This document shows positions 1 through 60,883 of a DNA stretch of 64,000 nucleotides, piece after piece. Below the pieces are notes generated by a model. It saw nothing but the letters and a program-made list of their open reading frames with translations. It had not been told where the DNA came from and did not search any database. The stretch comes from Amoebophrya sp. A120 (Eukaryota; Protista; Dinoflagellata): contig CAJINV010000003.1 of assembly GCA_905178155.1 (NCBI GenBank), forward strand, positions 10,855,367-10,919,366. Reading direction: 5' to 3'. Numbering within the stretch: position 1 is the stretch's first letter; each line of letters begins with the position of its first letter. Position numbers and translations under genes: made by a program.

Positions 1-242
1 TGCCGCTCAAACTAAATTGCAATGAAGATCAATCTGCTTTGCAGCATGAATATATACAAGATGTTGCCCACTACTTTCGGCCATGCTGAGAAGGACTTTT
101 CATGCAAAAGATGCACGACAGTCAAGGCCTTGCAGAACGTGTTAGGCCGCTAAGCCCTGCGGCGCTCCAGCAGATTTTGAGAGGCCTGAAAAAGCTGCAT
201 GACAACACCATTCCAGACCCAGAGGCATTTTCGCATTTGATA
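1..242. mobile_element. 3' end of an inverted-repeat intron (introner), family TATCAAATG..TCTGGGTCTGGAA
   Basis: ttccagacccagaggcattttcgcatttgATA closely resembles the right end of element 58811-59077. TGCATGACAA at 196-205. Open Tubby frame follows. Confidence 0.7.
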
Positions 243-2355
243 CTGGCTTGGGTTCCACGATTGTGGAAGCGGACATGCGCGTGGTTTCAGAGAGCAGCTC
301 AGAGGAAGACGAAGAGGAGCGGCGGCAGATGGAGCAACACATGCAAAACAGCCCCATCATGCAGGGCCAGCAGGTCAATTTGCAAATGGGCACGAACGGG
401 CAGCTGATGGGGCTTGAGCCGCGCGTGGAGCCCATCGCGGAAGACGGCTCGGTGATCCAAATGGAGCATCAAAGCCCCCAAGAGGTGGTCGTGATCAATC
501 AGGATAACCAGGAAATCAACAGTGCCGAGTATGTGATGCGCACTTCGCAGCCGGCGCCAAACCAGGTAGTGTTTCGAAACGGAAAAAAAGTACCGTCTTT
601 GCACGCCGCCCGGCCCCTCCACTTACCTCCGGAGAGGTTCGGCACCAGCGTGCAGCTTAGAAAAGATTTCGTCACCCAACCTCTACCCTTCGCGGATCGA
701 AGTCACACATTACAGGTAATTTGCTCGTAGTGAGCTTTTTATTTGTGGTTGACGTCAATAATTCAAAAACTCATCAAATGTCTACATCCGTAGTGCTGTC
801 TGCCGGTAAAAAATTCCAAGACCTCTAAAAGATCCTCAGAATGTTCCTTCTCCTCGATCATTCGATGATGACGGAGGAGGAAAAGAGTGGAATTCTTTGC
901 GTTCATGTTTCATCTTTACCATCCGGTGCAATGCGAACAGGCGCGCGTTGTCCGAGTACGCGAGGGATTGAGCGGTAAGCTATTTCCCACTTACCATCTC
1001 TGCATTCGGAATGGTCCCGGGGCCGATGAGACCATCCTTCTGGCCGCCCAGAAGCAAACCGGAAAACGCAGCTTCAGCAGCTACTACCTGATAACTCTGG
1101 ACCCACGCTGTTTTCAAAAGGGAGCGTCCACCTACGTCGCAAAACTGCGCGCAAACTGGGCAGGAACAGAGTACTTTTCATTGTATGCCTGTTTTACACC
1201 TAGTTTCGCAGTTATTTTCCCAGCAAACAGCAACGACAACAGCGTCTTTCGACGCTCTCAGACTTTGGTACAGCTCGGGACCTCAGCTGCGCACGTAGAA
1301 CTAGCGCTCGCACGAAAAAACGACGAAGGTACACTTTATTTTCGGATGGCGATAACCCGAAAAAGACAAAGCGGCTCCGCGGGTCAGACAACGCTCTCTT
1401 CGACCCGAGCGCCGCGGTTCGAGAAGAAATGCTTGCTATCAAGTTTTCGAAGCCCGGCAACGCACCGAGAAGAATGGTGTGCATAATACCAGGTACAGTA
1501 GGCAGCTACATCAAAATGATGTGATCAACGTACCACCTTTTCGAATTTTTTGAATAGGAACAATTTGTCTTGCTCCCTGCTGCTTCGTTTGAAGATGATT
1601 TTTGGAGAAGGTGTAGGGCCCAAGCGATTGAACGACCACCATTAAGAACATTGAGTAAATACGACCGTGATCTGCAACTGACTCAGGGACGATGCCGGGC
1701 AACCCCTATGAGAGGCAAATTTTCCGTTCGAAGCCGTACACTAGTCTGATCAACTACGCAACGGGCAAGGAGGTAGTGACCGAGGGCGAGGGGATTGATT
1801 TTTTGAAGTTTAGCAACAAGATCCCAGTCTGGGACGCACGCAGACAGACTTTCACGATAAATTTCTACGGTCGCGTCCGCTTACCGTCGAGCAAAAACTT
1901 CCAATTGGTGGAAAGCGACGGCGAGGATGCACCGCCAGTTGTGCAATTTGGCCGTTGGTTCGAGGACGTCTTCCACCTGGACGGAATGTGGCCGTTTTCT
2001 GTGGTAAGTTCTGCTAACTACAGTGTATATCATTGATTTACAGTGTTGTCATCTCTCGTCTATCTTGTTTTTATATGATGCTTCTGTGTGTACTACTAGT
2101 TTTTTATTTGAACCTTTGATGATTGTGATTTTCAAATGCTTTCTGCAGTGGTCCGTCGACCATGTCCGTCAAAGTTAAATACTTACAGGGTCGTTTGGAG
2201 GGGCAAAAATTTTAGTACGAAAGAAAAATACTTCGTACTTCAGGTACGGCATGGTATGTTAGATGCGAAAATCAAAATCGTAGGTACAAATGTTCGCCTT
2301 GGCATTATCTACCTTCGACACGCGGCTCCAGGAAACGTTCAAGATGACGTACTGA
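243..2355 (+). CDS. Tubby-domain (TULP-like) protein, 3' part; 5' end lies upstream of the window
   Basis: Exons ~243-715, 941-1170, 1329-1492, 1687-2003, 2284-2355, joined by in-frame GT-AG introns. Spliced product has Tubby motifs: LFPTYHL, KLRANWAGTEYTLFSDGDNP, APRRMVCIIPG, NKIPVWD..FTINFYGRVRLPSSKNFQL, QFGR, QMFALALSTFD. Confidence 0.9.
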
Positions 2356-4200: not shown

Positions 4201-7200
4201 ATGACGTCATCCCTTCACGTCAGCCAGGGGTTGTTTGACGTCGCTAGTGGGCCGTTGGGTAGCCCGCATCAGCGCGTTGCCTCTCCGTCACCGTCTCAGC
4301 GCGCCCGAAGCGTTCCCGCCAGGCAATCCGATGTCGGCTGTCTCTCGATGCTCGAATGGAAGCGGCAGAATGGCGTGCTGGGGCACCAAAAGGTGTTCTC
4401 GCTGTCACCATGTAAAGGCCGGAAAAATAAACAAAATCAGCAGCCGGAACCAGCTTCGAATCGCGTGGCCTCGCCGAGCTTTCTGAGCATAAAAAGCCTC
4501 CAGGCCGCGTCAACATCCCCAGCAAAGGGCTCCCCTTCGCCGAAGGGCGGCACAAAGGACAAAGGCGGAGAAAATACAAACGCGGAGGATGGATTGTCAG
4601 TATTTCTAGAAACTGCTTTTCTTAAAGAACTTTTTTTTCGTCAAACAAGGGACTGGTTACTATCATGGTCGTCATCATCATCTACTTCGATAAAAGAATG
4701 TTCATGCTCTTCTTGTTATGTTGTATGTGCTGCTGTCGCCAAAACTACGCATTGGTTTGCCGCATGCGGCCGCAGACGAGTAGAAGTAAAATCGACACTC
4801 TTGTTCCAAAATCTACCAACTCCAACGGAACGAATTCCCAGCCAACTCGCGTGAACAGCAGTTCCTCAGCATCCAGTAGCAGTAGTAGCTCCTCGTGCAC
4901 GGAACAAGGCGCGGACGAAGGAACACCCGCACCCGCCTCGCCCTCCCCCGGAAAGAACAAAAATAAGAAAAATGGGCCGAAGGGCCCACTAGACGCGGTG
5001 CGGCGGCACTTCGTTGAGAAGCTATCAGAGTGCACAATTCCCACCCCTTCCCCTCATTTGAAGAGCAGGAGCAGCAAGAGCGCAATCAATTGCAGAAGCA
5101 TGTCTTCCGGACGGAAAATCTGCACGCCGTTTGCAGCACTTCAGTAGCTGCTTGAGCTTCCGCAAGATGTCGTGCAGACACTCGCCACACGAAACCTGTG
5201 GACTATTTGAGCCTTTGCATTACTATTACATGATTATATAATGATAAATGAGGCGAAGGCGTTAGGGGAGTTGTTGTGCACTCCCATAGAAGCTTGGGTG
5301 GGTAGAAAATCGCGACCCGAATAGCCCCTTCTGTGATTTTATGCATCGCAAATGTTACGTCAACGTCATGCATCTGGGTGCGCAGAAATCATGCAAATTG
5401 CGATTTGTAAGCCACATCACTCTGGAGGGTCGCACACCAATTTGTGTTGCCTGAGCAGCGCAGCAACTTGCACAGTTCTTGCCACGCCATTCGCAGATTT
5501 CATCCCAGGCGGGGCTAGCATCAAGAGTCCTGAGCAAAACTTGTCTAAATGCATTTGTGTCCATCCCAGACCGACATCGATCTGCGTGATCCAAAAGATA
5601 CATAACTATCGGCATGACCCAACGATTTTCAGGGAAGAAGATCGATTCACAGGGCAGACTTTTGCATAATCCCGGAGGATCTCCCAGACAACTCATGTAT
5701 CGTAGATATTCGCGATGCATAAACCTCCGGTACTCGCTCTCCCGACGGGATCTGGGACTCCGGCCGCAGGCGCTGGCAAACAACAAGATTCCCTACGACA
5801 TGTGTATCAATTTTTTCGCCTGTTGTGGCGGTTTGACGACAAAAAGCGGGCTGCTGCGGAACCTGGAAAGATACATGCTATGCACTGCAAAGCAAATCGC
5901 ACTCGTATGACTTGCAGTAATGCTAATGCATGACAAATCTCTTTCGAAACCTGAAACACAATTACAAAGCACGCTTTTGGTCTTGCCGAAATTTGTGATG
6001 CTATCAGTACTAGTGCGATACTTTTGCGATGCATACATGCCCAACGTGAACGAAAGGATTAAGGCGGGGATCGCACCCAGTTTCGACCTGTCCGACATGC
6101 GTTCGGTGATCCACTTCGTCGACGCGTTTCAGAAGCAGCAGTGTCGGTCGCTCTTGTACCACCACTTCAAAGCGAAGTCCAGCAGCATCATCCCCGAGAG
6201 CACACTGCGCCTGGCGTGGAACACCGCGTCGAGTTGCAAGCCGCCGGTCTTGTCGAAAGACCAGTGGAGGCAGCTGACCATCGCCAGTAGCACTGCGCAC
6301 ACTCCGGGGTACAGACACCCTACGGCGGACCTGCAACTTGGTATCGAGCTTACAGAGTCGATAAAGCACTTCGGCTACAACGGACTGGACGGACACGACA
6401 ACATCTGGATTCTCAAGCCGACAAACGCAAATCGAGGCCGAGGCATTCGGGTTGTCAGGGTACATTTTTTTTTGTAAAGAAAACTCGCGGTCATGGCCAC
6501 TCATGAGGATACAAAGCAGAAAAAGCAGCCAAGAACTACCGGGCTGAATTAATCCATTTCAACTTATTGCGTTTGTGGTCTGCGCGTCCACTCAGACAGA
6601 GACCGAGGAGTACTTATGGTCAGCATGCGCTTGTTGATTAGATGTACACGAGACCGACAGGTGCAACGGATGTGCGCGAATAAGTTATAAATAGTTTTTA
6701 CCAGGGTGTTGATCATCATCTTCATCATCATTATTATGGACGAGAAAAGCGAGTGCGCAAACGCAAAGCTCCTCGGGGCAAACATGCTTCGGACCTTTAG
6801 TTATAACGATTAAAGATTCGAATTTCATCCCGTGATGTACTTTTTATGTTAGTGTTAGGCAAGATATGAAATCCACCAGGATCATAAGCCAAGCAAATTC
6901 CCTACGACCTAAATTGAATGTTCATTGAAATCAGGCTCTAAATTTGTCGTTCAAATTTGGATCCGAAGTGAAATCAGCATGTTCATACAAATGAACCAAA
7001 AACGAAGTTCATTCAAATCCCACACTGTAAGCTAGTGATGATCAACGATGGTTGATCGGATTTCTCATAAATTTAGGGTGATTAGAATAAATTTGAACTT
7101 TCATGTTTTACCCCCCTGACTGAGACGTGAAAATTTGTGTGTTGTCTGGAACGCTAAATTTTTCCCCACAGGCTGTGACGATAGTCACCATAGATTGACT

Positions 7201-45800: not shown

Positions 45801-48800
45801 TGCAAGCCGAGTGGACGTCTTTGCTGACGAGCCTCGAAAACACGCCCTCCTACTACGTCGCCACGAACGACGTGAGCGAGCACAAGTACCCGGACCCGAC
45901 CGACCACGGGATACCTGCCCCCGCGATTTCGCCGCTCGTCGACTTTGTCGCGGCGCACCTCTATCCGCAGATGACCACCACGGTGAAGAAAGCGATCCAT
46001 TTGGTGTACGACGCGAACCTCGACACGCCGTTGTTCTTGATCCCCTACAGCACCAACGTGACCGGCACGAGCGCGGTCAGTCCCGCTCCGCTAGAACCGC
46101 CCGGCGAGTTTCGGGCAATCGTCGGACTGGACGAGGCCGCTCAGCTATCCACTGCAAATTAATATCGACGATCTGGGCCCTCGGGGAGAGCTGTGCATTT
46201 GTTTGTGCCAATGGCTGTGCCATGCATCTTGCTTCTGCCATCAGAAGATTACAGATACAGATGAAACTAGGCAAGATTATGCTTTTTGCATCAGCTGCTT
46301 CTAGAGCTGGAGTATTGGTATGGCACGCGAAGCGTTATAGGTTTTGAGAAGCCCGCTCCCAAAACATGGGTACTCCTGTGAGAAATAGGGTATATCCGTT
46401 GCTGGAAAGAGACGTCAGCGCCATTTGGCACGCGTGCAACACCGATTTTTGTCTGCACGAGGTGGAGAATGAGTATCACAAAGGTGCAATGAACTCGTGG
46501 TCGAGACCCAGACATACACAAATTTGCGATGCATAGCAACAGGGGGAGTACTACCGCAAGCAGCTGACGAACACCCTCCCGGTGCACACCAACCTGGAGG
46601 CGTGTTGCGGGTTTCGGTACCAGCTCGTGTACCACGCTCGAAGCCTTCTTCAGCAGCCACGGTACCCGGTGAGTTTGGGAAACGACACGTGGTCCATGAG
46701 CGTGGACTTTAGCTACGCGGAGAAGGGCCGACATTACGAGCTTTGCATACGGAGGAACACCACTCTCCCAAGCGGACCGTCCAACTGGTATGTTTTCGTG
46801 AATCCGATCCCGAAACGGCTAGACATCACGATCAAGATGCTGAACCTGGAGCCGGCAAGGCTGCACTGTCCCGTGTGCGCGAAGCGCGCTAACAATCCCA
46901 ACGTGTACCAATCGCGACTCTATTTGACCGCCGAGCCGGTGTGTAACCCGTCCGGAAAACGCACCGAGGTACAGTACCTGCACACCAGCGCGCAATTGGT
47001 CACAATCGACGACGTGGTGCCCGGGTTCAACGCGCTGACTCGGCAAAATGCCAAGGTCATGCGTGTATCACAGGTGTACTTGTTACACAACTCCCCACGT
47101 TGTGGTTGTCCTTCTCGTTTGTCATGAAAAATGCCATCAAGAGGGAGAGCGGCCACATCCACCTTTGCCTTGTGACACTGTGTACCGCGTGGCAGGGTCG
47201 GAACCCGAAATTCCAGCGCTAGAGACCTTAATTACCAAATCTTTATTCAAAAAAGAGAGGCTCCTTTGCAACGCTTGGTCCCAGTCAACGCCTGCTGGGA
47301 CCACGATCCTATAAACATCGTGCCTGTCCGTTTTCATTCAGGGGTCGGGGGACTGCGGGGAGTTGTGCACTCTGATAGTGCGGCGGCCAGACTTACAAGA
47401 TGTGCATAGACGTTATGGAGCTCTCAAACGTTACATGCTCAACTGTTACATGATTTGTCATGCCAAATTAATGAGCATCAAGATCAACATCCACACGGTG
47501 AACGTGAAGGCACTTCGCGCAACAACTTTTGGAAGGGTTAAGCAGCAGCAGCACCTAGAAAATCTGTGCGGAATTTGCAATGCTACAAGTTATGGCAAAA
47601 ATCAATAGAAGAAAGGTCCTCGCACCTGTAGCATTGCAAATTCATGTGAATAAAGTTGAGAGTGTAACGCTTGAGCGCACCATATACGTAGATGGTCCGG
47701 GGCCGCTCGCGCCGCACACGAACCACTGGCACTTGCCGACCATGCGGTACGGGTACGCCAAACCGCACACGATTTTCGTGTCCCCCATTCTAACAGCGCA
47801 ACGGACCATCTACGATGAGGGCTCGCAAACAATCGACATGGTCTGCCCGGATCTGGTGTCCGCAGTAAATTTCCCGTACACAGCGACGATGTGCAAATGC
47901 GGATTCCGCATCCACGACGAATCTTATGCTTGCCTCCCATGCTAGAAGTCCTCAGTGGGACAAGTCGCGGCGTTACAGCACTCGTCTAAGTTGTTGGCTA
48001 ATAGAAATAATTTGTGATCCATTTTGTGCCACCAGCACGTCGTGTGCGGGAAATTATTTGTGTTGCATATCTGGGTTGCGTGGACGGGCAAAGCATCATC
48101 TTCCTGGAGCAGTTTGAGGCTGGGAAGGACCTGCTTTTGATCTGCAAGAACCAGGGGCTGGACAGGCGGTCGGATCCGTTGCCGCAGGTGGACGTGGCCA
48201 AGTTGACGGCGGTCGCGAACAACTTCCGCGTCACGGTGAACTCGGCCCAACTGGTCCCAGGGTGGTACCGGATCTGCTTCGACTACGACGGAGTGAGCGG
48301 CGCCCTGGTCCCCGGTTGGTCCGAGCACGACGTTTACAACTCGGGGGTGTACAACGCGTTCTCCACGGGCCTCGCCAAAACCACTAGCATGTCGGTCTTC
48401 GTGAACTGCAACGGCTGCTCCGAGGCCACCACCATCGCCTACTTCAGTCGCGATTGCGAAGTCACATACACTATCCAGAAGAAAAACGTTCTTCCAGCAC
48501 CTCAGTCTCAGAGTTGTCATGCAAACGTGCAAGCTTCACAAGTACAAGTTGAAGTTTCTCATGCGCAGCCCCATGGGGTGGTGGAGCATACTGTAATACT
48601 GTCTGGCAGGAGTTTGTCGTGCTAGAATCAGGGTAAGGAGGTAGATTTGTAATGCAGCTACAATTGCCAAACGCGATTAAGTACACTGCGAGCGCCAATA
48701 AAACCTTTTATGCGCGCCAGCCAAAAGTAGGAAAATCCTGATCTTGACTCTGAGGTGAGGACGTTTTTGTTCACAATATACACTGTTTTTGGAAACAACC

Positions 48801-51800
48801 GCACACCAAGGCTGAAGGTGGAAAGGATTACGCAGGTGGGTTTCCCCTACGGGTGGCGGCTCACCGGAGACACCAGTCTGCTCACCTATTCCTGGTCGTA
48901 CCGGCTATGCCTCAGCGTCAGCGGAAACACCACGCAGGAACCTATTGGGACAAGTTTGAAATTTTACGTGTCCCCGCTAGAAAATGTATACAACTTTTAT
49001 TATATTGATTCACAGTCCTCTCGTCTTACACTTCTGATGTGGCGCTTTGAAAATATCTGGTTGCTAATACTTAATTGCTTCGTTGACTATTTCTGCTTCA
49101 AGTTGAAGTTGTTCGCATGGCTACGTACAAAATTGGGATGCTTCGTGCGGTGTTTTTATTTGCCATATAAATAAAACTACAAGATATCCACACAACGGAG
49201 TCGTGAGTTGGGTACCAGTTATTTTTCCAATATAACCAAACACAGGTGAACATGATGACCGTGTTGCCGCTCGAGTTCCTGATGTATCGGTTCACCTGTT
49301 TTGCCTGCGACACAAGCATGATCGCCTACATTAGTTACCAGTGCGACACGCAGGATGGGTTGAATCCGGTGTACCGGAAGGAGGGCTATTTCGATTTGTA
49401 CATATGCTCTGCAAAAGTATCGCACTGGCAGTAATTGCAGTCATGCATAAGAAATTTTTTTCTTAAGGTGTATCAGCATGACATCCGTTTCCCATGCTGG
49501 GCTAATTTGTCATGCGATTCAATATACTAGTAGGCGCGATACTTTTGCAATGCATAGCACACCTCGCAAAGCAACTTTCTGAAGCGAGACAAGGTCCTAT
49601 CAGAGCGCAAAACCACTCGGAGACGTCCCCCTCTGCTAGCATGAACGCCAGGGAAGGCAGAAGCTATACCAGGAGTGCAGAATTACACAAAGTTTGTGTG
49701 TGAAGAAGATAGGTTCTTCATGTTGCACCGACTGCAGATCTGTATGGATGCTCGTTGGTCATGCAAGAAGTGCTTCCAGAAGGCAACACCAGGATACAAC
49801 AGTAAATGTGGGGAGCCGGAACGTCGAGGAGTTGTGCACAGTCATAGGGCCGCGCCGAGCAACCGACCGAGTTCGATTGGGCCCTGGAGATCGATGCCGC
49901 GAACCCGCTTCCCGGCCTGCGTCTATCCTGAGTAATTAATAGCTGTTGTAGCCGCACTCCCAGGACATTGTGACAAATCCACGCTGGTATCATCCTGGTT
50001 AGGGCATGGACGACCCTCTCGCAAGACAGTAGAGAACGCCTCTCAACAACAACATTTGGAGCCGCTTGTATGAGACGCACACACGACATGATAACCCGGG
50101 AATCATGGAAATTTGTATGACGTCAGCATCTGGTGTGAGTACAACTACGTTATTTTTACACAGGATGGCTTCCCGGACGACACTACAGTTTATGTGTGTT
50201 GCAAAACGGTGAATTGGGAAACGCGGTGCCGAACATCTACACCACCCCGATTTTGAAGAAACCTCTGTGGAACTGGCGCCCGTCCAACTTCTCCAGCTCA
50301 ACCTTCACAGCCGCGATCGGAGACAATGTGTGGATCTACAATGAGCCGGAGCCTTTGTACATTCACCCGGGCGGGATGACGGTGTGTGCGTGGTTTCAAA
50401 TGACGCCTTTCGACTATCAGACCAAGACCAAACCCTTCTTCCCGCTGAATCCCATCATCGATGGCGAGCGGTACGGCATCAACATCATGGCCAACACGCT
50501 GGAGATATCTTTTGTAAAGACGACGCACCCGCCATCCCATAGTCAAGACGGGAATTATTCTGCAAGACAAATAAATCCAAAACTTGTATATGGGAGTCAT
50601 GCGTCGGCGACGTGACAAGCTTGGCTATAATGCTGCGTTGCCGTGCCAAGCTAGTCCGGACGCGTCGCAAGTCCGCTCTCTTTTCCTGCACTTCGACTTC
50701 GCCCGACAATTTTACTTACAGACATGACGTAGACTAGAAAAATGCCAGCCGGGTCGCGCGAGATGTTTTGCGCAAGCAGATTTGCATGACAATCCTGAGG
50801 GCGCGGCGGGGACGTCTTTACTCAGGACAGGAAATCAACTTCTTCGTGCGTGACGACATGATATGCGTTTGAAATATGTCTGGGCGGTCTGGAAAGATGC
50901 AGGCAATATGTCTTTTTCGTTTTTACTGATGGAAGCAGCTAGACCAGCGCATGGCAGCATCAAGTGCAGCTGCATTTGTTGATTTACTTCTCCGCCTCTT
51001 GGTTGCGAATTCATTTTCATTGGTGGTAATTCATGTATTTTACAGTTTTAATCGGGCTTGCAGCAGCTCAACCACTGGAAAACTCGCTTTTATTCCTCTG
51101 CATCTGTCAGAGATGTCTATTTTGCCTTCGAAATCTTGCATCTCTGACATTTTTGTAATTGCGGTTGATACCTGACGGAGGGCTACAAGAAGGGTATCAC
51201 GTGCGGCGTGACCACGGGCATCCATCATGTCTGCGGTGTGTGGCAGGCCACGAGGGAGAGCATCGGGCAGGGACGTTTTCTGTACTTCACAAGTTTGAAG
51301 ATTTTCCTCGACGGCCGCATTTGCAACGAGAAGCCGTACGAGGGAACCGGCGTGATAGAAAAGGACTGGGACTACCTGTACACCATGGTGGGCGCGGAAC
51401 GGCGCTACATGACGGAATTCGAAGGCAGCATCTGGGATGCCCGGGTCTACGATGAACCATTCCATGATCGCCTGATTTATTCCCTGAAAATTACTTAACC
51501 ATCCCCGTCCAGTTTGTCACGCTCACGCGAGACATGTTAGTAAGTAGTAAAGTCACGGCTTTGCAGTCATGCAAAAACTGTATGGGAGTGGTAAATTTTG
51601 AGGGAATAGGATTGAGCAGATTTACGAGGAAGGCTACGCCTACCCTGCGCTCTCGCAATCTCTCGTGCGCTCGAATGAAACAGACGTACTAGCTTTCATG
51701 CGGGTTTGTTATCACTGCGATTTCTAAGTTCGTTGCCACAACAGAAAAGGCCTTTCTTTCTCATGTTTCTGTTTCCTGTTGTGTTAGTAAGTAGATTTAT

Positions 51801-54800
51801 GGAATGAAGAATGAAGCGCCATGCTGCACGACTCCTCTAGTTTTGAAACGAACGTCGAAATTCAAAAATACAACAGATCTACTTTTATTGTTACGTACCC
51901 TGCCTGGGCAGCAAGGTGGTTCTTTCGACTGACTGCGATGATCTCGAGGATCCGAGCAAGCGCGGGGAATTCGGGTCGGTAACAACGCAGCGGGCTGGTG
52001 TAATGGACATTCTGCCCACGACACCGGGTGGCGTCTACATATCGCACCAAAAAGTGCTAACATTAGAGGACGGATTTCGTACCCAGTAATACATCAGGAT
52101 TCAGGAAAGGCGGCCAGCTTTGGATGAATTGCATGATATCATGCAAGCATTCTAGGAATTTTTTTGTCAATGCCCTAAAGATTAGTCGAAGCCGTTCTTT
52201 GCGCTAGCATTTTTTTTTGTTTGATACTGGAATTTATGTTTCAAGATTCAAGACCCGCCGATCAATTTTTCGCCGTACAATCCGAAGTACGGTGACACAG
52301 GGGTGCGCGTGTTCGTTCGTCCCAGGATTCATCTTGTGCAAGTTGTGAGTATTCAGGTTTCCAGTGCGCAGGTGATGGTGATTCAGGAGGCAACTTCGTT
52401 GTTTGCGTGCCAGCCCTTGCTGCCGGAAGAGGTAGGGGAGACGTTCCTGGTGTTACCCACCTGGATTCGGGAACGGGGCATCCTCGCGAGTGGTTGGACC
52501 CAACTCCCCGCGGAGAAAGCCCTGTCCGAGTATGGGGTCTCCTCCGACGTGCCGCTCTATCAGGGATTCGTTCCGTTGGACAAACTCACGCCAGACGTGG
52601 GCTACACGGTCTACTGCGCCGCGCACCTAAACGAGGACGAAATCTGGATCCGCCCGTTTCGAACACAGGTGGCTGCGATCTTTACAGCCAAACTGCGCAT
52701 TCACGACGTGCAGCAGGGCCATCTGCAGTATGGAATGCACAAAAACTACTACGTCCCCGCCGTCCCAGCTTCGTCATCGACAAATCTGCATGCCTGAAAT
52801 GTTTCTCATGCGCAGCCTGCCTATGAGGAGTGTTTTCTACCGCTAGCGTCAGGAGTTTTCGTTTTGGTGTCATGGCCTGAGTAGCATAATGTCATCGATT
52901 TCTGATCCAACTGCTTCCGCTTCGCTAAGCACGGCTACACTTCAACTAGGCCTCAAGTTGCAATCTGCAACAGTCAAACCTAAAACTTCTCGGCTTGTGC
53001 AACAGAGTGACACAGCAGCTGTCATCTTGGCTATGGGTGCTGGGGGATGTTTTTACAGACGATATGCAGTCGCCCTACCACAATGGCCTCGTTATTCGTG
53101 CGACGGCACAGGGTTCGACCTTTGTCCAGTGTCGACTCGTCGGGCCCAACCGGATTTACCTCGCGAACTCTCCAAGTGCGCGGGAAGGCGAAGCGCCCGA
53201 CGGCAGCACGCTCAACAGCACAGTACCGGGACAAACCATCTACAAAGGTGTAGTTTATTGCTCTTCTTGTTATTCTTGTGATGTTGTCGGTCGCGACGCT
53301 CTGCTCAACAAAGAAATGGAAAATGGTCAGAAGTAGTTGTCGTGGTTGATAACTCCTCTACTAAAATATGAAAATAATATAGAATTGTTGTTGTCGTGGT
53401 TGCAGTACTTGCACAAGTCCTTATGTATGGTCCTCCTCTGATGTACTAGTTCTAGTTCTCGTAGTTCTGTGATCCACAGCACACCAACAGGGCCATCGTG
53501 TTTCAAGTCGAGCGCCGTACCTCCCTACCAGCTGTCGGATTTCCTGTATCCGACGACGGGTCCCGAGAACGGGACTGCGGCTGGGTGCGGGTACAGCAAC
53601 CTCACCTACTGCCCGGACTACTGCAGCGTCGGGATCGACGGGTTGTACCCGGCCTCGGACTATGAGTTTGAGTGCTGGACCTTGTCCGTGCCCCACGAGC
53701 GCCTGAACGGCACCGGGCGCACCGCGGTGCCCCCGCTCGCGTGCGGCGGGTTTCTGTGCGTGGCCCTGGATTCCCTCACGGGAATGTTGACGGAATGGAA
53801 CGTGTCCGCCACCCGTTACCTGCCGACCGCCAGCAACTTTCCTCTCCGGACGGTGGACACAAACGGGCAGACCTCCTGTGGTGTGCTGGCCGCCGACGTG
53901 CGTGTGGACGTGCAGATGACCAACCACCACGTGGAGTGTGTGGGGGTGCAGGCAAGTTTGTTCCAGGACACCACCCAGCCGTTCTTCTCCGTCTCCCTCG
54001 GCGAGTTCCACAAGTGCAGCGTCAGCCGCGGCCTCATCGCCAGTTTGAAGTGCGCCGGTGATGTATCCAATCGAAAAGAGTAGTAGCCCCAGTGGTTGTA
54101 GTAGTTCCAGAACATCAAAAAACGTTTCTCTCGCGGCGAATTTTTCACATTCAAAGAAGAAGAGCCTCCCTTTGGGGGCTGCTTGCATGAAAGGATTGGG
54201 ACTCGCTCCTGGTGCGGGTCTTTCAGATTGTGGGCGCGCGAGCACATGATCCACGCGTGATTCCGTACATGACAAGCTCGAGTTCATCTTTCTTGGCCTT
54301 TTTGCAATGCAGTTTCTTATTGAAGAACCTCAACCTGCATCGAACTCGAAGGCGCGCACTTGTCCACCTCCTGCGGTGGCAACTGTTTCCAGGAGTAGTT
54401 GGTGGTATTGCAGCTACTACGGAAGTAGTGGTCGTGGTCGGGCCGAGTTCTGGACCGGCAACCAGGGGACTTGTTTTCATGTTGATATGACGACCGGTGG
54501 GGGCAGTTAGTCACGCTCCGTGGCGAGGAGCTGGTGACCAACTACCTAGACGTTTCGTGCGGCTGGACGCACTGCTGCGCACTGTCGACAACCTTTGCGC
54601 TCAAGTGCTGGGGCTACCTGCCCAGCGAGGTAGCCGCCCCCGCGGGGGAGGTGCGGTTTGTGCAGGTGTCCAGCGGCCGCGGCTACAGCTGTGGGGTACG
54701 CGCCGACGACCGGCGGGTGCAGTGCTGGGGCACGAACGAGTTCTATCCCAAGAAAATGAATGCGCTTACATGTTACAGTCATGCGTTAGCGTTCGGTGGA

Positions 54801-55729
54801 AATTCAGCATCGAAAAGTAAGAAAGTAGTTTCGCACCATGTAGTGTTGACAAAGAAAGGTTTTCATTGAGGATACTATCCTGATGATCTCTGAGTCTGAC
54901 TCTGCATGACAACGCATGAGACTTCTGGGCTCGCGTGCTTAATATCCGGCATGACAGACCTTGCCCGTCGTCTTGCCTAGTCTGCGAGAACGCATCAAGG
55001 CCCGGTGTTGTAACTGTAGTTGTCGTACCTTTTTTCTTTGCATTCGTTTGGGCAGTCCATTCCCAGCAACGCCACCCTGCGCGACCTCGCTTTCGAACGG
55101 GTTGCGTGCGGGGTTCACCACACGTGCGGGATTCTGCAAGGCAGCCGGAAGATATCACGGGAAAAAGTGTTAACGTTAACGGAATTTGTGATGCGGCAAC
55201 GCATCACAAAACGTGTCAGAATTTGTCATGCATAGCATGCATATTTATTGGGCTACATTTGTGATGCATGGCTGCCATCTGTGAAAACCGTTAACGTTAA
55301 CACTTTTCCTTGGGATAGAAGATCGCGTGCTGGGGCGCGTTTGAGCTGGGGCAGCTGGATTTGGGTGCGGAAGTGGAGCAGGACGAGTTCATTAATGTGG
55401 CGGTCGGTTCCTACCACGCGTGCGGATTGAACCTGCACGGGTTTGCGCGGTGCTGGGGCCCAGGGATTCGGGAGGACGCCCTGATTCAGAATTTTACGCA
55501 CCAGGCCCTACTGAAACAGGACCCGGACCGGACCTTCGACTACAATCTGACCGCTCTGCAGGAAGATTTCGTCTTCTACATACCGAGGGAGCGAAAGGCT
55601 TTGTCCTACAAAACGATCAACTTTTTGCCTTTGACGAGCAAGTTTGGGTTCGTGTCCGCCGGAAGCGGGGCGTCCGGGATCCCGAACAATTTTTCGATGT
55701 CCGACCCGGTATATCATAGGACCAGGTAG
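36806..55729 (+). CDS. Giant secreted/surface protein: many Cys-containing beta repeats, LamG/ConA-like domain, C-terminal RCC1/BLIP-II-like repeats
   Basis: Hydrophobic N-terminal segment (FIYLILCTVLVLGL). Recurring h-x-x-G-x-x-Y-x-h-C-x-D-x-DG...VYVSP unit and many NxS/T sites. LamG-like HHVCGVW..KIFLDG..FEGSIWDARVYD. Repeats VSCGWTHCCAL..CWG, VSSGRGYSCGV..CWG, VACGVHHTCGI..CWG, VAVGSYHACGL..CWG. More than 20 exons, several junctions unresolved, so it could be more than one gene. Confidence 0.72.
37004..37307. mobile_element. Probable inverted-repeat intron (in frame, no stop)
   Basis: TGCAA/CGCAG flanks, gcaaatat / atatttgc inverted repeat. Element+5 = 309 nt. Confidence 0.55.
37386..37808. 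mobile_element. Inverted-repeat intron related to 22064-22374
   Basis: tatggaagtgtctgggttgaaatt / aatttcgacctttgcgcttccata, GAAGG/GGAGG flanks. Also readable as GT-AG. Confidence 0.8.
38419..38738. mobile_element. Non-canonical inverted-repeat intron
   Basis: tatccagaaaaa..ccagca / tgctgg..tttttcctggaca, AGGTG/AATTG flanks, frame-consistent. Confidence 0.75.
40370..40637. mobile_element. Non-canonical inverted-repeat intron, family TATGCATYGCAAA
   Basis: CGGTG/CGGCA flanks, tgcaaaagtaaaa / ttttacttttgca, TTGTCATGCA at 40467. Confidence 0.82.
40520..40598 (+). repeat. ~75-bp dispersed repeat with (GAT)n tail, copy 1
   Basis: cgcccaccccccggggaggggatccttggcctgtggc..ccactacatgatga, near-identical to 44453-44527. 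Confidence 0.9.
41832..42118. mobile_element. Inverted-repeat intron, family TATGCATYGCAAA
   Basis: GGATG/GGACG flanks, tatgcattgcaaat / atttgcaaggcata, three GTCATG boxes. Also readable as GT-AG. Confidence 0.85.
44385..44707. mobile_element. Non-canonical inverted-repeat intron
   Basis: Perfect AGGAT direct repeats, TAC..ATA ends, acgtta..ctgtatacat / atgtatacag..taacgt. Removal gives ERRMRLLV. Confidence 0.82.
44453..44527 (+). repeat. ~75-bp dispersed repeat with (GAT)n tail, copy 2
   Basis: Near-identical to 40520-40598. Confidence 0.9.
46146..46535. mobile_element. Non-canonical inverted-repeat intron
   Basis: TCAGC/GCAAC flanks, tatccactgcaaatt / aatttgcgatgcata, frame-consistent. 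Confidence 0.75.
47066..47377. mobile_element. Inverted-repeat intron, family TATCAGAGTGCACAA
   Basis: Right end is the near-exact reverse complement of the left end of element 5023. GCGTG/GTGCG flanks. Confidence 0.82.
47414..47684. mobile_element. Non-canonical inverted-repeat intron
   Basis: GACGT/TACGT flanks. tatggagctctcaaacgttaca / tgtaacgcttgagcgcaccata. Removal gives CIDVDG. Confidence 0.88.
47857..48069. mobile_element. Non-canonical inverted-repeat intron
   Basis: Perfect TCTGG direct repeats, aatttcccgtacac / gtgcgggaaatt. Removal gives CPDLGCVDG. Confidence 0.8.
48472..48778. mobile_element. Non-canonical inverted-repeat intron
   Basis: Perfect TACAC direct repeats, aaaaacgt..cacctcag / ctgaggtg..acgttttt, TTGTCATGCA at 48514. 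Confidence 0.85.
49403..49556. mobile_element. Non-canonical inverted-repeat intron, family TATGCATYGCAAA
   Basis: GTACA/GCACA flanks. tatgctctgcaaaagtatcgc / gcgatacttttgcaatgcata. Confidence 0.88.
49598..49846. mobile_element. Non-canonical inverted-repeat intron, family TATCAGAGTGCACAA
   Basis: GGTCC/GGGCC flanks, tatcagagcgcaaaac / gagttgtgcacagtcata. Confidence 0.78.
49924..50167. mobile_element. Non-canonical inverted-repeat intron
   Basis: GCGTC/GCTTC flanks, tatcctgagtaa / ttacacaggatg. Removal gives LRPGRHYSLC. Confidence 0.8.
50506..50829. mobile_element. Non-canonical inverted-repeat intron
   Basis: GGAGA/GGAAA flanks, gtaaagacg / cgtctttac, TGCATGACAA at 50783. Confidence 0.78.
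50862..51170. mobile_element. Non-canonical TAT..ATA intron
   Basis: CATGA/CCTGA flanks, weak inverted repeat, frame restored into the LamG-like exon. Confidence 0.65.
51478..51608. mobile_element. Non-canonical inverted-repeat intron
   Basis: TGATT/GGATT flanks, tattccctgaaaatt / aattttgagggaata. Confidence 0.8.
55153..55317. mobile_element. Non-canonical inverted-repeat intron (near-complete foldback)
   Basis: Perfect GAAGA direct repeats. aaaagtgttaacgttaacgg / ccgttaacgttaacactttt, plus gcatcacaaa / tttgtgatgc. TTGTCATGCA at 55223 in the loop. Removal gives SRKIACWG. Confidence 0.92.
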
Positions 55730-57085: not shown

Positions 57086-58366
57086 ATGGCTTGCTTTGCG
57101 CCGAAGAAGGCTTGGCGAGACTTCGAGGAGGCTATCTTCGTTACGTGGCCCGGAATCTGCGAAGCCTTCGATACGTACGTTGGCCACGTGACGAATGCGC
57201 AGGAACAGGACGAGAATTACGGTGGGGCGAAGCAAGTATACCTGCGGAAGTGCGCAACGGAAAAAATTGCGGTGCACGAGAAGTTTGTGAATGGGAACAA
57301 AAGCTACGATCAGCTGCGGGTCCAGCTTTTCGAGTATCATGAAAAATTCTCGATTCACCATCACCGCGTTCGGCTGGCCATCGACCGCATGTACCTGGAA
57401 TTAGAGCTGCTCCCTCCGGGCAAGCGCGGCTGCGTCCCGCCGTGGAGCCGGCGGCGCATGGCCAACGTATTCTCCCAGCAGCAGGACTGGATGCAGGCTC
57501 TATATCACGGGTTGACGCTGCTGGAAACCACGCGGGCTGTGATGTGGAAACTGGTGGACCCCAACTGGACCGGCACCCGCGATTCTGCGGCAGAGAAGGA
57601 AAAATTGACTAACCTGTCGGCTTCGTTTCTTTCCTCGCCATCAAGACGCGGTGAACGACCGGGGTCGCCCTTCTCGGAAGCGCTTGCGGCCCTGGATAAC
57701 AACGAAAAAACGTTGCTCACGAGTGACATGCCGGGAATCACACACCCCGCCCTGAACGTGTTCGAGGTGGTATCCGAGCAGCGAATTATCGGTGACAACT
57801 ACACGAAGACGAAGGGGGGCGAATCGGTGCAGTCGGCCACCAAGATGCGTTTTTTTCAAACCACCGCCAGTGCCCGTGCGGGCGAGCTCGTGTTCCCGGT
57901 GCCGATGCTGCGCTGCACCCTGGGCGAGGCGGTGCTGCTGATCGCGGACGTGTTCCGGAAAATGCTGTGCACGTACCTGCAACTTCCCCCCACGGCCGCC
58001 GGGCGCTTGCAGCTTCCCGTCCTGGCCCCGGAAATTCTGAAGCAGAACCGCAGCCGCGGGGTCTTCGCCCAGGAGGAGGTTGTCACGCAGCTGTGTTTGA
58101 CCGCGTTGGCGCTGGCGCTCGTGCGCCTCAGTGTCAGCCAGCTGGCCACCTTGAAACAGCGGAACCCGGACAAGATCCAGCTCTACTACTCCTCCGCGTC
58201 GTCCGCCGTGTCCACCACCGTGCAGGATCTTTTAACGAAAAAGCAGGGACTCGTGAAGAGTGTGCTCGTCCTGGGCCCGGAGTGGGGCGCGGTAGAGGAG
58301 GGCGGAAAGTGGCTACGACAGAGCAACTACGCATTGGAAGCCCGTGCAGCGTCGTACTCGTACTAG
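57086..58366 (+). CDS. Hypothetical protein, apparently single exon
   Basis: Uninterrupted ~426-codon frame with the GC3-rich codon usage of neighbouring exons. No recognised domain. Confidence 0.7.
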   Translation: MACFAPKKAWRDFEEAIFVTWPGICEAFDTYVGHVTNAQEQDENYGGAKQVYLRKCATEKIAVHEKFVNGNKSYDQLRVQLFEYHEKFSIHHHRVRLAIDRMYLELELLPPGKRGCVPPWSRRRMANVFSQQQDWMQALYHGLTLLETTRAVMWKLVDPNWTGTRDSAAEKEKLTNLSASFLSSPSRRGERPGSPFSEALAALDNNEKTLLTSDMPGITHPALNVFEVVSEQRIIGDNYTKTKGGESVQSATKMRFFQTTASARAGELVFPVPMLRCTLGEAVLLIADVFRKMLCTYLQLPPTAAGRLQLPVLAPEILKQNRSRGVFAQEEVVTQLCLTALALALVRLSVSQLATLKQRNPDKIQLYYSSASSAVSTTVQDLLTKKQGLVKSVLVLGPEWGAVEEGGKWLRQSNYALEARAASYSY

Positions 58367-58718
58367 TCCATGATAGAATGAATTGGAGCAGGGTCATTTT
58401 ATATGGGCGACAACTTTTGATCTTGTAATTTTGTTGAACGTCGAGTAAAATAAATCACTGATCTGAAGTCATTCTTAGTGGAAGGAGGGAGTAGCACGCA
58501 GCAGCCTGTCAAAGGGCTCACTGCCAGCATTATCATCGTCATCGCTAAGCTTCGAAGATGGTGGCGGAATTATATCAGATATCTTTTATCTCAATGCATG
58601 AACCTCACATGGTACTCCACGGCATTATCGCCATCGCGCTTTATATATTTTTATTGTCATGACAATACTATGTTGCAATTCGTATGAGTGCGGTAATTTT
58701 GCACAGAATAGCAACAGT

Positions 58719-60883
58719 ATGGAGAATCGGTGCCGGCGCTTGTTGGAGGTGATGCGCACCCTGCAAACTCTGTGGGGCGGCGGCTACCGGGTTCCGGGAA
58801 CGGGGGAGTTTATCAAATGTAAAAATGTCTGGGTCTGGAAGATTCCGAGATTTGTCATGCAGTATTTCCAAGGTCCACCAAGTCTGGAATGCAGGGCATA
58901 GCATCACAGGTTCTGCAGCCCCTTGCTGATGCCCATTATGCATGAGAAATGCCCTCTGAGCATGGCGAGAAATGGGGACCTTTTGCAAGTCATGCAACAC
59001 AGATTTTTGTATCATCCGCAACACGCATCACAAGTTCGTATTCTTCCAGACCCAGACTGACATTTTTACATTTGATGGAGTTGCAGTCGCTGCAATTTCC
59101 GAATTTTTGTGCGGAAAAGACGCAGGTTCTTCAGTTGGATGCAAACCTCGTGAAATTTATGGAAACAAAAGGAAAGCTGAGTGCTGAAACGACAGCCAAA
59201 GTGGCCGCACTGTTTGGAATAAGAATCGAAGATGCAGCAACTGCCATAGGACCAGGATCGGCCGCAACTGCAACTACCTTGAGAGACGTTGACGTGGCCT
59301 CCAAAAGCTCAGAGAATAGACCTGCTGTGGCCCCCAGCAGCACTAACGCGGACATCCACATCGGGGCTGCAACCGGAAGCGCAGCGACTGCAGCTGGTGC
59401 CCCAAACGCTGCGCCAGTATCATCCACCGTACCTGCGAAAGTGAAAAATAAAGGTGGCTCATCCGGTATGTGCTGTTGTGCCCAGGACGGTGACGCACAG
59501 GGTGCGGAGGCCGAAGCGGCGGCCGTGCCTGACGTCAAGGGCCTGGCACGATTTTCGATTGCATCGATCGACGATATTAGGGCTGGCGAGGGTGAGGAGG
59601 GAGATCCGCTGGCCGCTCTAGCACAAGGGCAAGATGATCCTAGAAGTACCAACAAGAATAATACGAATGGTGCTACCAGCGGACTACAGCTAAATGATTC
59701 GCCCGTCGTATCACCGCAAGCGCAAGAGGGAGCTGCCGACGGCCAGACAACGTTCGAGATCCTCTCTGGTGCCCCAGTCAAGGGCACAACCGCGATGGGG
59801 GTCGCTCGCAGTCGGGCGGAGAGCGGTGACAAGCGAGTCGTTGCTTTGAATGCCGCTGCAGCATTCAAGGTGGGCGGGGGTGCCTTGACCGGGGGTCGGC
59901 ATGCGCTCGAGGAGTCGTGGTGTGCGACCACGACGCTGCTCCGCAGTTTGTTGCAGGCACAATTTATGGTAGAGCGTGGATCCATCGGACCGCGCAGCAT
60001 TTCTTCCGGTCTACTCAAAGACAATCGTGCTTCAGTAGCAAGTGCCGCAACCACTCGCAGTCCGCGGATGAGTGCCAACGTCAGGGTGACCACCACCTCG
60101 ACTGCGGCGACTACTCCAGCGCAGTCCAGCACGCATCATGGGGCAGAAAAACGATATTTTCCGAGTTACTCATGCGTGATGTCACCCAAGGTAGAAATTT
60201 TCCGCGGGTCCATCTTCGACAACTACAGATTCTTGCCGAACTATCAAGGCAAAAAAGTTCTTCGTCACGAAAACTCATTGGGTTCGGCTTCGGGGGCGGG
60301 CATGAGCTTTGCAATACAAGCAGCATATTTATTGTCTGCGAAGATGATCCATAAGAAAGCATCACAGGGAGTTGAATTGTCAAGTAGTATGCGATGTGAT
60401 TACGGATGTGATTGCTTTTCTGCAACAAAAGAAAAAGTTGGAATCTTCCTTCGCAGGAGATGAAAGCTTCTGCAAAACCCTCCAAACCTGCCGATGAATA
60501 GTGACTAAAGCGATCTTTTTTCCTTCCACGCCCAACCAGTGGCGCTCGCTGGCGTGGTGTCCATTGCGGCCTTCAACTGTAATCCGAGTGTGCGTGACGC
60601 TCCCATCGACGCTCCGCAGGACCCCAGTGCGTATCGAGACGGGCTCCGCCGAAAGTGGTTTGTGGCACTGTGCGGCGCCGCACTTCTAGAAGGTCAGGTT
60701 CTTGTAGTTCCGGACGTCGGCTGCGGCGTGTTTCGAAACCCGCCCGAGGAAGTGGGCGACGCTTTTGCGTTTGTGTACTCGCAGTTTTTCGCCAACACAT
60801 TTGAGCGCGTTGTTCTCTTAGGGAATCCAGCTTTTTGCGAGCGTGCTGCCGCCGGGGCCGCAGTCGTAGTCCGAGCGCAGTGA
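58719..60883 (+). CDS. Microbial-type poly(ADP-ribose) glycohydrolase-like macrodomain protein (TIGR02452/DUF2263-like)
   Basis: VVALNAAAAFKVGGGALTGGRHALEESWC..TLLRSL, SPKVEIFRG, VVSIAAFN, LVVPDVGCGVFRNPPEEVGDAF. Introns at 58811-59077 and ~60242-60530. Confidence 0.82.
58811..59077. mobile_element. Non-canonical inverted-repeat intron, family TATCAAATG..TCTGGGTCTGGAA
   Basis: Perfect GAGTT direct repeats. atcaaatgtaaaaatgtc..tgggtctggaaga is inverted at the right end. TTGTCATGCA at 58852. Confidence 0.92.

What the first reader, a model, noticed from the sequence alone, without database searches (positions are those of the whole stretch)
1..60530. One grammar for ~35 non-GT-AG introns: 5-bp repeat + TAT...ATA foldback + 5-bp repeat
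Seen: most coding interruptions begin TAT (rare TAC/TGT/TAG) and end ATA (rare ACA/ATG), have 10-57 bp terminal inverted repeats, and are flanked by a 5-nt direct repeat. Perfect cases: GAAGC 5023, CATGC 5879, GGGGC 16314, TTCTA 21255, ATCAC 22064, AGGAT 44385, TCTGG 47857, TACAC 48472, GAAGA 55153, GAGTT 58811. In every listed case, deleting element+5 nt restores the frame, and usually no register gives GT-AG or GC-AG. Known: non-canonical introners with inverted and direct repeats are reported in Amoebophrya. Inference: these are non-autonomous DNA-transposon insertions with a fixed 5-bp target duplication that the host removes exactly, apparently using structure rather than splice dinucleotides. 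The strict TAT/ATA+5 rule across unrelated families is sharper than I recall being described.
Basis: partly seen in the sequence, partly recalled or inferred. Interest (0 to 1): 0.9.

Follow-up and report, generated by a model that had tools for sequence, protein, structure and literature searches.

The report
Fixed-geometry hairpin transposon introns in Amoebophrya
Genes of the marine parasite Amoebophrya A120 are interrupted by dozens of hairpin-ended inserts, likely remnants of jumping DNA, that sit between five-letter repeats and are missing from its RNA as insert plus five letters, likely cut at one fixed position instead of at the usual GT-AG signals; the inserts were already described, but the exact rule is sharper than the published one.

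Summary
Real, and a known system with a sharper rule. The window is Amoebophrya sp. A120, whose TAT-starting introner elements are published (PMC7789003). I list 42 elements (40 in 1-60530). RNA contigs of one sample lack element+5 at 15 of 15 exact joints and 8 more by summed length; DNA contigs keep them. The direct repeat is perfect in only 12 of 42 here, but in 93 of 104 copies of one family from a metagenome assembly, with no other length supported; other families agree. Decayed repeats reveal the cut: only 'after repeat base 4' fits 15 of 15, so the intron reads N-TAT...ATA-NNNN, with U at +2 and mostly A at +3 as in GTA donors. Two elements ignore a same-length GT-AG option 3 nt away. 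The upper bound of the register rests on two RNA cases plus one orthologue case. No transposase was found; one published supplement row already gives '5-bp TSD, TA/TA termini' for one A120 family. Best guess: integrase-type non-autonomous transposons removed by a relaxed U2-type spliceosome. The scan noted similar introns in other dinoflagellates, not on this DNA.

The parts
5023..5288 (+). element TAT..ATA, repeat GAAGC/GAAGC, in TTLL gene
   Evidence: sequence; A25 orthologue aligns without gap only at +5; no RNA laid
5340..5721 (+). element TAT..ATA, repeat GATTT/AACCT (2/5), TTLL gene
   Evidence: no RNA laid
5879..6035 (+). element TAT..ATA, CATGC/CATGC, TTLL gene
   Evidence: no RNA laid
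14828..15071 (+). element TAT..ATA, TCAAT/GGAAA (2/5), TTLL gene; orthologue residue K favours cut at or before repeat base 4
   Evidence: no RNA laid
16314..16438 (+). element TAT..ATA, GGGGC/GGGGC
   Evidence: predicted
16750..16909 (+). element TAT..ATA, TAGCG/TAGCA
   Evidence: predicted
16992..17261 (+). element TAT..ATA, ACGAC/ACAAC
   Evidence: predicted
20141..20386 (+). weak element TAT..ATA, GCTCG/GCAGC (2/5); register 4 gives GT-AG
   Evidence: (score within shuffle range); predicted
21255..21590 (+). element TAT..ACA, TTCTA/TTCTA, polycystin-domain gene; related to 22064
   Evidence: predicted
22064..22374 (+). element TAT..ATA, ATCAC/ATCAC, 62-bp inverted repeat; family also in metagenome loci
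   Evidence: predicted
22742..23165 (+). element TAT..ACA, GCCAC/GCCGC
   Evidence: predicted
26466..26750 (+). weak element TAG..ACA, CGCCG/CAGCG
   Evidence: (within shuffle range); predicted
28233..28579 (+). weak element TAC..ACT, GCGCA/GGGCA
   Evidence: (within shuffle range); predicted
34335..34714 (+). element TAT..ATA, AGTGC/CAGGC (2/5)
   Evidence: predicted
34789..34989 (+). element TAT..ATA, CTCAC/GTTGC (2/5)
   Evidence: predicted
37004..37307 (+). element TAT..ATA, TGCAA/CGCAG
   Evidence: predicted
37386..37808 (+). element TAT..ATA, GAAGG/GGAGG; register 4 gives GT-AG
   Evidence: predicted
38419..38738 (+). element TAT..ACA, AGGTG/AATTG
   Evidence: predicted
40370..40637 (+). 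element TAT..ATA, CGGTG/CGGCA
   Evidence: homologue P0003 continues at residue 80 on both sides; predicted
41832..42118 (+). element TAT..ATA, GGATG/GGACG; RNA skip 292 = 287+5
   Evidence: exact joint
44385..44707 (+). element TAC..ATA, AGGAT/AGGAT; +5 by summed length
46146..46535 (+). element TAT..ATA, TCAGC/GCAAC; RNA skip 395
   Evidence: exact joint
47066..47377 (+). element TAT..ATA, GCGTG/GTGCG; RNA skip 317
   Evidence: ends placed by hand
47414..47684 (+). element TAT..ATA, GACGT/TACGT; RNA skip 276
47857..48069 (+). element TGT..ATA, TCTGG/TCTGG; RNA skip 218
   Evidence: ends placed by hand
48472..48778 (+). element TAT..ATA, TACAC/TACAC; RNA skip 312
49403..49556 (+). element TAT..ATA, GTACA/GCACA; RNA skip 159
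49598..49846 (+). element TAT..ATA, GGTCC/GGGCC; RNA skip 254; same-length GT-AG option (register 1) not used
49924..50167 (+). element TAT..ATG, GCGTC/GCTTC; RNA skip 249
50506..50829 (+). element TAT..ACA, GGAGA/GGAAA; RNA skip 329
50862..51170 (+). element TAT..ATA, CATGA/CCTGA; RNA skip 314; ends barely pair
   Evidence: ends placed by hand
51478..51608 (+). element TAT..ATA, TGATT/GGATT; RNA skip 136
52040..52226 (+). element TAT..ATA, CTACA/CTGGA; +5 by summed length
52729..53064 (+). element TAT..ATA, TGCAG/TGCAG; +5 by summed length
54064..54487 (+). element TAT..ATA, TGATG/TGACG; +5 by summed length; RNA piece ends at repeat base 4
54744..55044 (+). element TAT..ATT, AGTTC/CGTTT; +5 by summed length
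55153..55317 (+). element TAT..ATA, GAAGA/GAAGA; +5 by summed length
58328..58710 (+). element TAC..ATA, GCAAC/GCAAC; +5 by summed length; ends barely pair
58811..59077 (+). element TAT..ATG, GAGTT/GAGTT; high-copy family used for the metagenome scan; +5 by summed length
60242..60530 (+). element TAT..ACG, CGAAC/CCCAA; RNA skip 294; RNA keeps the right-hand repeat base 5
61865..62252 (+). element TAT..ATA, GGTGT/GGCGT; RNA skip 393; same-length GT-AG option (register 1) not used
63263..63613 (+). element TAC..ATG, CGGGG/TGGAA; RNA skip 356 with one possible cut only (register 4, GT..GA)

Best explanation
These are the introner elements of Amoebophrya A120: short hairpin-ended inserts, likely non-autonomous DNA transposons whose likely integrase-type transposase leaves a fixed 5-bp duplication, that are absent from RNA as element plus five bases and are likely cut one base before TAT and four bases after ATA, likely by a relaxed U2-type spliceosome. 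Shown: the 5-nt repeat with no target preference, removal of exactly element+5, restored reading frames, insertion in both orientations. Inferred from decayed repeats: one fixed register, so the intron is N-TAT...ATA-NNNN and the exon keeps bases 1-4 of the left repeat and base 5 of the right one. Inferred: the terminal TA supplies +2U/+3A in the register of this genome's GTA donors while +1 is free; the fold-back brings the ends together and the 3' cut is set by distance from the right arm, not by AG. Because the ends are symmetric, any insertion in either orientation would become a removable intron. Untested: the transposase and the enzyme that splices.
For: RNA contigs: 15 of 15 exact joints skip element+5, 8 more fit by summed length, and the same contigs lack GT-AG introns; listed DNA contig pieces run through the elements. 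Removing 18 elements at +5 and 4 GT-AG introns gives a 2918-aa open frame against 702-768 aa at +3, +4, +6, +7; the 947-aa model equals database protein P0001. Metagenome copies: 93 of 104 perfect at 5 nt, at most 1 perfect at 3, 4 or 6-10 nt; other families 109 of 202 perfect at 5 nt, 0-4 at 3, 4, 6, 7. Register 4 alone fits 15 of 15 (chance 2.6e-5 if each intron chose at random among six registers); at mismatched repeat bases 1-4 the left copy is kept 17 of 17 times, at base 5 the right copy 2 of 2 times; the A25 orthologue gives a third base-5 case. Two elements leave a same-length GT-AG option unused. The terminal T is never changed at the host 5' end but is at the 3' end: 0 vs 5 among 23 RNA-supported elements. 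All nine top non-canonical types listed for A120 in Table S4 of PMC7789003 have T second. 21 of 23 elements vs 1 of 6 GT-AG introns have 5 or more predicted pairs between their ends. TA..TA ends with a TG..CA minority match GingerRoot (PMC6839031); a 5-bp duplication matches TDD-4/5 (PMC2836005).
Against: No transposase or long coding element found; PMC7789003 reports no transposase in A120 and argues against transposase-driven spread; U1 snRNA was not detected in A120. The upper bound of the register rests on two old elements in RNA and one orthologue residue; register 5 fits 13 of 15. The +2U asymmetry was noticed on the window and is not significant on the independent loci alone (2 vs 7 changes, p=0.18); TAT is also constrained by transposition history. 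A at +3 is not invariant (TGT, TTT, TGG occur). Two removed elements have almost no predicted end pairing, and 7 left arms pair as well or better with a neighbour's right arm, so simple best-helix rules fail. RNA evidence is contigs of one sample (RNA status a guess of the tool), which hide minor isoforms.
Confidence: 0.6

Rival explanations
1. Same elements and same fixed geometry, but removal is by a non-spliceosomal, structure-guided cut-and-join enzyme, as supposed for Euglena nonconventional introns.
For: No sequence constraint at +1, -2 or -1; available GT-AG options are ignored; ends pair in 21 of 23; U1 not detected; the Euglena signature is also a short pairing at fixed distances from the cuts (PMC12501133 abstract).
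Against: U at +2 sits in the register of GTA donors and tends to be spared from change at the host 5' end; two elements with decayed pairing are still removed exactly; U2, U4, U5, U6 and nearly all spliceosomal proteins are present; in Fritillaria changed U2AF and snRNA marks accompany non-GT-AG splicing (PMC13326754 abstract).
Confidence: 0.25
2. The removed length is fixed but the cut position within the 5-nt repeat varies (register 4 or 5, or set case by case), as the 2021 paper supposed.
For: Register 5 fits 13 of 15 joints; both deciding RNA cases are old, decayed elements, one of which starts with GT; Fig. 3 legend of PMC7789003 calls the sites variable.
Against: One register fits all 15; registers 0-3 are excluded by 5-13 joints each; an orthologue residue agrees.
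Confidence: 0.1
3. The gaps are reverse-transcriptase template switches across hairpins with direct repeats, not splicing.
For: Hairpin plus direct repeat is the classic setting for this artefact (own knowledge).
Against: Exact +5 removal occurs with a 2/5 repeat and no shared base at the joint (63263) and without end pairing; unspliced genes would be broken, yet spliced frames match A25 and other homologues across the sites.
Confidence: 0.02
4. The elements are excised from DNA in part of the cells, or the 'RNA' contigs come from an element-free allele.
For: The tool only guesses that X1-X4 are RNA.
Against: The same contigs lack GT-AG introns, are otherwise identical to the window, and listed DNA contig pieces of X5 keep the elements.
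Confidence: 0.02

Closest known systems
Introner elements / non-canonical introns of Amoebophrya sp. A120 (Farhat et al. 2021, PMC7789003; sections 10-12, 16 and supplement passages read; figures not seen)
   Same: Same organism and elements: inverted repeats starting TAT, seven looser bases, then AAA; direct repeats over the exon/intron border; a 5-bp example in Fig. S19; 65% non-canonical introns.
   Different: The paper gives repeats of 3-5 nt that vary in length and position (most often 4 in A120), no clear splice signature and variable sites relative to the hairpin. Here the repeat is always 5 nt (shorter counts look like decay) and one register fits all informative joints, with T second.
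A120 introner family 38 (Gozashti et al. 2025, PMC12130899; section 6 and 40 of 58 A120 rows of supplement file 8 read, plus a term search of that file)
   Same: TIR element with note '5-bp TSD, TA/TA Termini', classed Ginger, with an ORF resembling LTR-element integrase.
   Different: One 5-copy family; automated duplication lengths in the other rows seen run from 2 to 6 or are missing, and the splice-site origin is given case by case. No such ORF-bearing element is in this window.
GingerRoot (PMC6839031) and Ginger2/TDD (PMC2836005) integrase-type DNA transposons (passages read)
   Same: TIRs; TA..TA ends with a TG..CA minority and no target motif (GingerRoot); 5-bp duplication (TDD-4, TDD-5).
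   Different: GingerRoot makes 6-bp duplications, Ginger ends are TGTNR; both are kilobases long and encode a transposase, which was not found here.
Euglena nonconventional introns (PMC12501133, abstract and introduction read)
   Same: No GT-AG; cuts at fixed distances from a terminal pairing.
   Different: Signature N3-CDG...CH'G-N5-6 then a purine; here N1-TAT...ATA-N4, offsets summing to the 5-bp duplication, no purine rule seen.
Introners of Polarella, Symbiodinium, Micromonas, Aureococcus and Fritillaria (10.1101/2020.10.14.339549 and PMC11282704, passages read)
   Same: TIR elements whose duplication supplies part of the intron ends.
   Different: Those need specific duplication sequences to form GH/AG sites (or AG-AC/AT ends in Fritillaria); here no base preference at +1, -2 or -1 is needed.

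Membership tests
Amoebophrya A120 introner elements | In the A120 genome | tested here: met
   Exon 57086-58324 is 100% identical to a 947-aa protein labelled Amoebophrya sp. A120
Amoebophrya A120 introner elements | Non-GT-AG intron supported by RNA | tested here: met
   15 exact joints, none with a GT-AG or GC-AG reading (one AT-AC); 8 more by length
Amoebophrya A120 introner elements | Terminal inverted repeat TAT + 7 nt + AAA | tested here: met
   Terminal profiles from 40 window arms and 454 metagenome arms
Amoebophrya A120 introner elements | Direct repeat over the boundaries; repeated families | tested here: met
   227 metagenome elements fall in 26 clusters
Non-autonomous TIR DNA transposon (MITE-like) | Short, non-coding, TIRs, fixed duplication, many copies, both orientations | tested here: met
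   125-424 bp; 93 of 104 perfect 5-nt repeats; marker of the searched family at host 5' end 6 times and at 3' end 7 times among 44 oriented copies, absent in 31
Non-autonomous TIR DNA transposon (MITE-like) | Empty site with one copy of the repeat in DNA of a relative | tested here: inconclusive
   No metagenome locus overlaps window exons; protein-level continuity with A25 across four sites
Ginger2/TDD or GingerRoot | Autonomous element with integrase-related DDE transposase | tested here: inconclusive
   No hit of the window's Copia pol in 486 kb of loci and no long coding element; genome not held
Ginger2/TDD or GingerRoot | Ginger: TGTNR ends; GingerRoot: 6-bp duplication | tested here: not met
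   Ends are TAT in 36 of 42; duplication 5, none of 104 perfect at 6. Works like them, not filed as a member
U2-type spliceosomal intron | GT/GC...AG ends | tested here: not met
   0 of 15 RNA joints; register 4 gives GT-AG in 2 of 42
U2-type spliceosomal intron | Lariat with 2'-5' branch, dependence on U2/U5/U6 | not testable with these tools
   Raw reads X7 did not cover the exons
Euglena-type nonconventional intron | N3-CDG...CH'G-N5-6 | purine | tested here: not met
   Geometry is N1-TAT...ATA-N4; first exon base after the cut is A, C, G or T

The most novel reading that the evidence does not exclude
All of the tens of thousands of A120 introners follow one splicing code, N-U-A at the 5' end and a cut four bases past the right arm, read by a spliceosome that has dropped G+1 and the whole 3' AG for hairpin-closed introns and passes over GT-AG sites 3 nt away. 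One integrase-type transposase with a 5-bp stagger would then make a perfectly removable intron at any exon position in either orientation. The TT-starting introns of strain A25 (IR starting TTA in the paper) would be the same N-U-A code reached by a different element.
Probability: 0.4. Interest if true: 0.8.

Novelty: already known. Interest (0 to 1): 0.5.

Why it matters
How A120 removes about 65% of its introns without GT-AG, and apparently without U1, is an open question since 2021, and the paper left the splice position unknown. A fixed 5-bp duplication and a single cut position turn it into point tests: mutate +1, +2, +3, change the 4-nt spacer, look for lariats. The rule also gives gene finders exact junctions, names the kind of transposase to look for, and explains how a transposon can flood exons at no coding cost.

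Tried and rejected
No whole genome is held and the metagenome records could not be searched for an integrase domain, so the hunt for an autonomous element covered only the window and 486 kb of loci: no hit, and a 972-bp family copy with perfect repeat has no frame over 86 aa. Four viral-contig matches to the 19-nt end show no element behind it and look like chance. No listed holder is on record as RNA; raw RNA run X7 put 37 reads on one element's ends and none on exons, no evidence either way. Invariant A at -7 as a branch point: 23 of 23 in the window, but changed 7 times at the host 3' end in metagenome loci: rejected. Internal TGTCATG motif as a strand-specific splice signal: 170 sense vs 137 antisense in 189 elements, peaking 40-49 nt from either end: rejected; more likely a transposase-binding repeat (inference). 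Selection for G at +1 or AG at -2/-1: none seen. Annotated A120 proteins for two more genes, wanted as further register tests, were not returned. In the blind diagonal test 3 of 15 joints did not give the element ends and were placed by hand. No Rfam family in the window. One search used a wrong end for the 21255 element (21593), corrected to 21590 afterwards.

Full report
Source. No genome is held for the window. One exon (57086-58324) is 100% identical to a 947-aa protein labelled Amoebophrya sp. A120. Genes lie on the + strand: a Tub-family gene, a tubulin-tyrosine-ligase-like gene, a polycystin-domain gene, a class 3 lipase, a very long gene with laminin-G and RCC1-like domains in its homologue, a PARG-domain gene and others.

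Observation. The ten named cases are as described. TAT..ATA pairs with at least 7 of 9 more paired bases and at least 4 of 5 repeat matches number 9 against 0.15 in shuffles. By profile scan and by eye I list 42 elements of 125-424 bp, 40 inside 1-60530. The repeat is perfect in 12, 4/5 in 15, 3/5 in 8 and 2/5 in 7. Three predicted elements (20141, 26466, 28233) score within the shuffle range (top shuffle score 28.3 in 8 shuffles). Five of 42 have a same-length GT-AG or GC-AG reading. Within the window most elements are unrelated to each other beyond their ends.

RNA. The run search listed four contig sets guessed to be RNA (one sample), two that hold 97% of the words, and three raw RNA runs. 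Laid on 41000-60900 and 46900-64000, X1, X2 and X3 give exon pieces with no other letters, while listed pieces of X5 run through the elements. One search reports 25 joints in 46900-64000 and shows 15; my model has 20 elements and 5 GT-AG introns there. Fifteen element joints are known to the base (12 from the joint table and 1 from pieces, 2 from pieces); all skip element+5 and none reads GT-AG or GC-AG. For 12 of the 15 the best ungapped inverted-repeat diagonal, found without using the repeat, gave 5 by itself; three were placed by hand. Eight more fit by summed exon lengths (195, 912, 350, 95 nt, all exact; the GT-AG intron lengths in these sums were read from the sequence, one of them, 191 nt, found by looking for what the sum required). 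With +5 the long gene has a 2918-aa open frame, with +3, +4, +6 or +7 only 702-768 aa. Four elements of the TTLL gene, not covered by RNA, align best to the A25 orthologue at +5 rather than +2 or +8. X7 covered no exon, so there is no read-level check.

Fixed duplication. A 25-nt end of the 58811 element matched 132 stretches of the metagenome collection (scan stopped at its limit; the 80 rows shown are all from one assembly). Of 104 copies with both ends, 93 have a perfect 5-nt repeat, 7 have 4/5; at 3, 4 and 6-10 nt at most one is perfect; the target has no motif. A repeat-blind search of L001-L080 gave 946 strong arm pairs, 267 with TAT..ATA on the diagonal; leaving out the searched family, 109 of 202 are perfect at 5 nt and 0-4 at 3, 4, 6, 7; 54 have 2/5 or less, probably arms of different copies paired by the search. 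So the duplication is 5 bp across families and shorter published counts probably reflect decay (inference).

Where the cut falls. In decayed repeats the RNA shows which copy is kept. At bases 1-4 it is the left copy 17 of 17 times, at base 5 the right copy 2 of 2 times; only a cut after base 4 fits all 15 joints (register 5 fits 13, register 3 fits 10; chance 2.6e-5 under random choice). The A25 orthologue has K where register 4 gives K and register 5 gives N at 14828. The intron is therefore N-TAT...ATA-NNNN. Its +1, -2 and -1 bases are free, but +2 is T in 23 of 23 and +3 is A in 22 of 23, the register of the GT-AG donors here (GTA in 5 of 6). At 49598 and 61865 a GT-AG intron of identical length is available three bases to the left and the RNA shows it is not used. 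Since both ends are symmetric, unequal decay should reflect the host: the terminal T is changed 0 times at the host 5' end and 5 times at the 3' end among 23 RNA-supported elements (Fisher p=0.049). That idea came from the window; on the independent loci the count is 2 vs 7 (p=0.18), one exception making a G-C donor and the other a weak call (strand calls were right for 19 of 19 window test elements; about 4 false elements per 140 kb). It is suggestive only. End pairing is predicted for 21 of 23 elements and 1 of 6 GT-AG introns, but two removed elements barely pair and seven left arms pair as well or better with a neighbour's right arm.

Mechanism. Shown: elements, 5-nt repeat, exact removal. 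Inferred: cut-and-paste origin with a 5-bp stagger; TA..TA ends and 5 bp point to an integrase-type transposase (GingerRoot has TA..TA ends and 6 bp; TDD-4/5 have 5 bp). No such enzyme was found in the DNA at hand. Inferred: a U2-type spliceosome that reads N-U-A, uses the fold-back to bring the ends together and cuts 4 nt past the right arm; A120 has U2, U4, U5, U6 but no detected U1. I put this at 0.6, a non-spliceosomal structure-guided enzyme at 0.25, a variable register at 0.1, artefacts at 0.04.

What is in print. Farhat et al. 2021 (PMC7789003; sections 10, 11, 12, 16, passages and supplement text read, figures not held) describe these elements in this strain, with TAT starts, 3-5 nt repeats of varying length and position, a 5-bp example, no clear splice signature and variable sites; all nine top A120 types in Table S4 have T second and all nine A25 types start TT. 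Their logos (Fig. 3, S21-S25) may already show part of this. Gozashti et al. 2025 (PMC12130899; section 6, 40 of 58 A120 rows of supplement file 8; files 13 and 14 not searched) note '5-bp TSD, TA/TA Termini' for one family with an integrase-like frame and 2-6 bp or nothing for others. A 2024 review still calls the Amoebophrya repeats 3-5 nt and highly variable (PMC11282704, passages). Searches (listings only beyond the papers named) showed no paper stating one 5-bp rule over families or a fixed register; subscription journals are mostly missing from the library. Earlier notes of this scan report similar hairpin introns in other dinoflagellates, none in this genome; I did not test them.

Verdict. 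The feature is real and is a known system; the fixed duplication over families and the single cut position with U at +2 are refinements that make the open splicing question testable. Interest 0.5.

Noticed in passing
window 6853-14246: Full-length Copia-type LTR element (467-bp LTRs, 458 of 467 identical, GTTAG duplication) inside a GT-AG intron of the TTLL gene; gag (8088-9338) and pol (9339-13700) are in one frame separated by a single TGA, which suggests stop read-through.
   Followed up: partly
window 47382-47409, 49559-49595, 50834-50858: RNA-supported exons of only 28, 37 and 25 nt between neighbouring elements.
   Followed up: no
window 58811-59077; run X7; loci L001-L132: This family's ends occur in a raw RNA run that covers no exon of the window and with an exact 25-nt end in a metagenome assembly, so families may be shared beyond one strain; whether those sources are the same species was not determined.
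   Followed up: partly
element interiors, e.g. window 47455, 48514, 58852: Motif TGTCATG recurs in unrelated families on both strands, peaking 40-49 nt from an end, and resembles the terminal arm; candidate transposase-binding repeat.
   Followed up: partly
L030:4001-4972: 972-bp copy with perfect family ends and perfect 5-nt repeat whose middle 700 bp is unique among the loci and has no long frame.
   Followed up: partly
window 48986-49245: GT-AG intron that starts GTAT, shows an 11/14 internal inverted match and some predicted end pairing (8.6); perhaps an old element turned canonical.
   Followed up: no
window 40370-40637 and 44385-44707: Two elements with different ends share an internal 75-bp stretch at 95% identity, suggesting exchange or nesting between families.
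   Followed up: no
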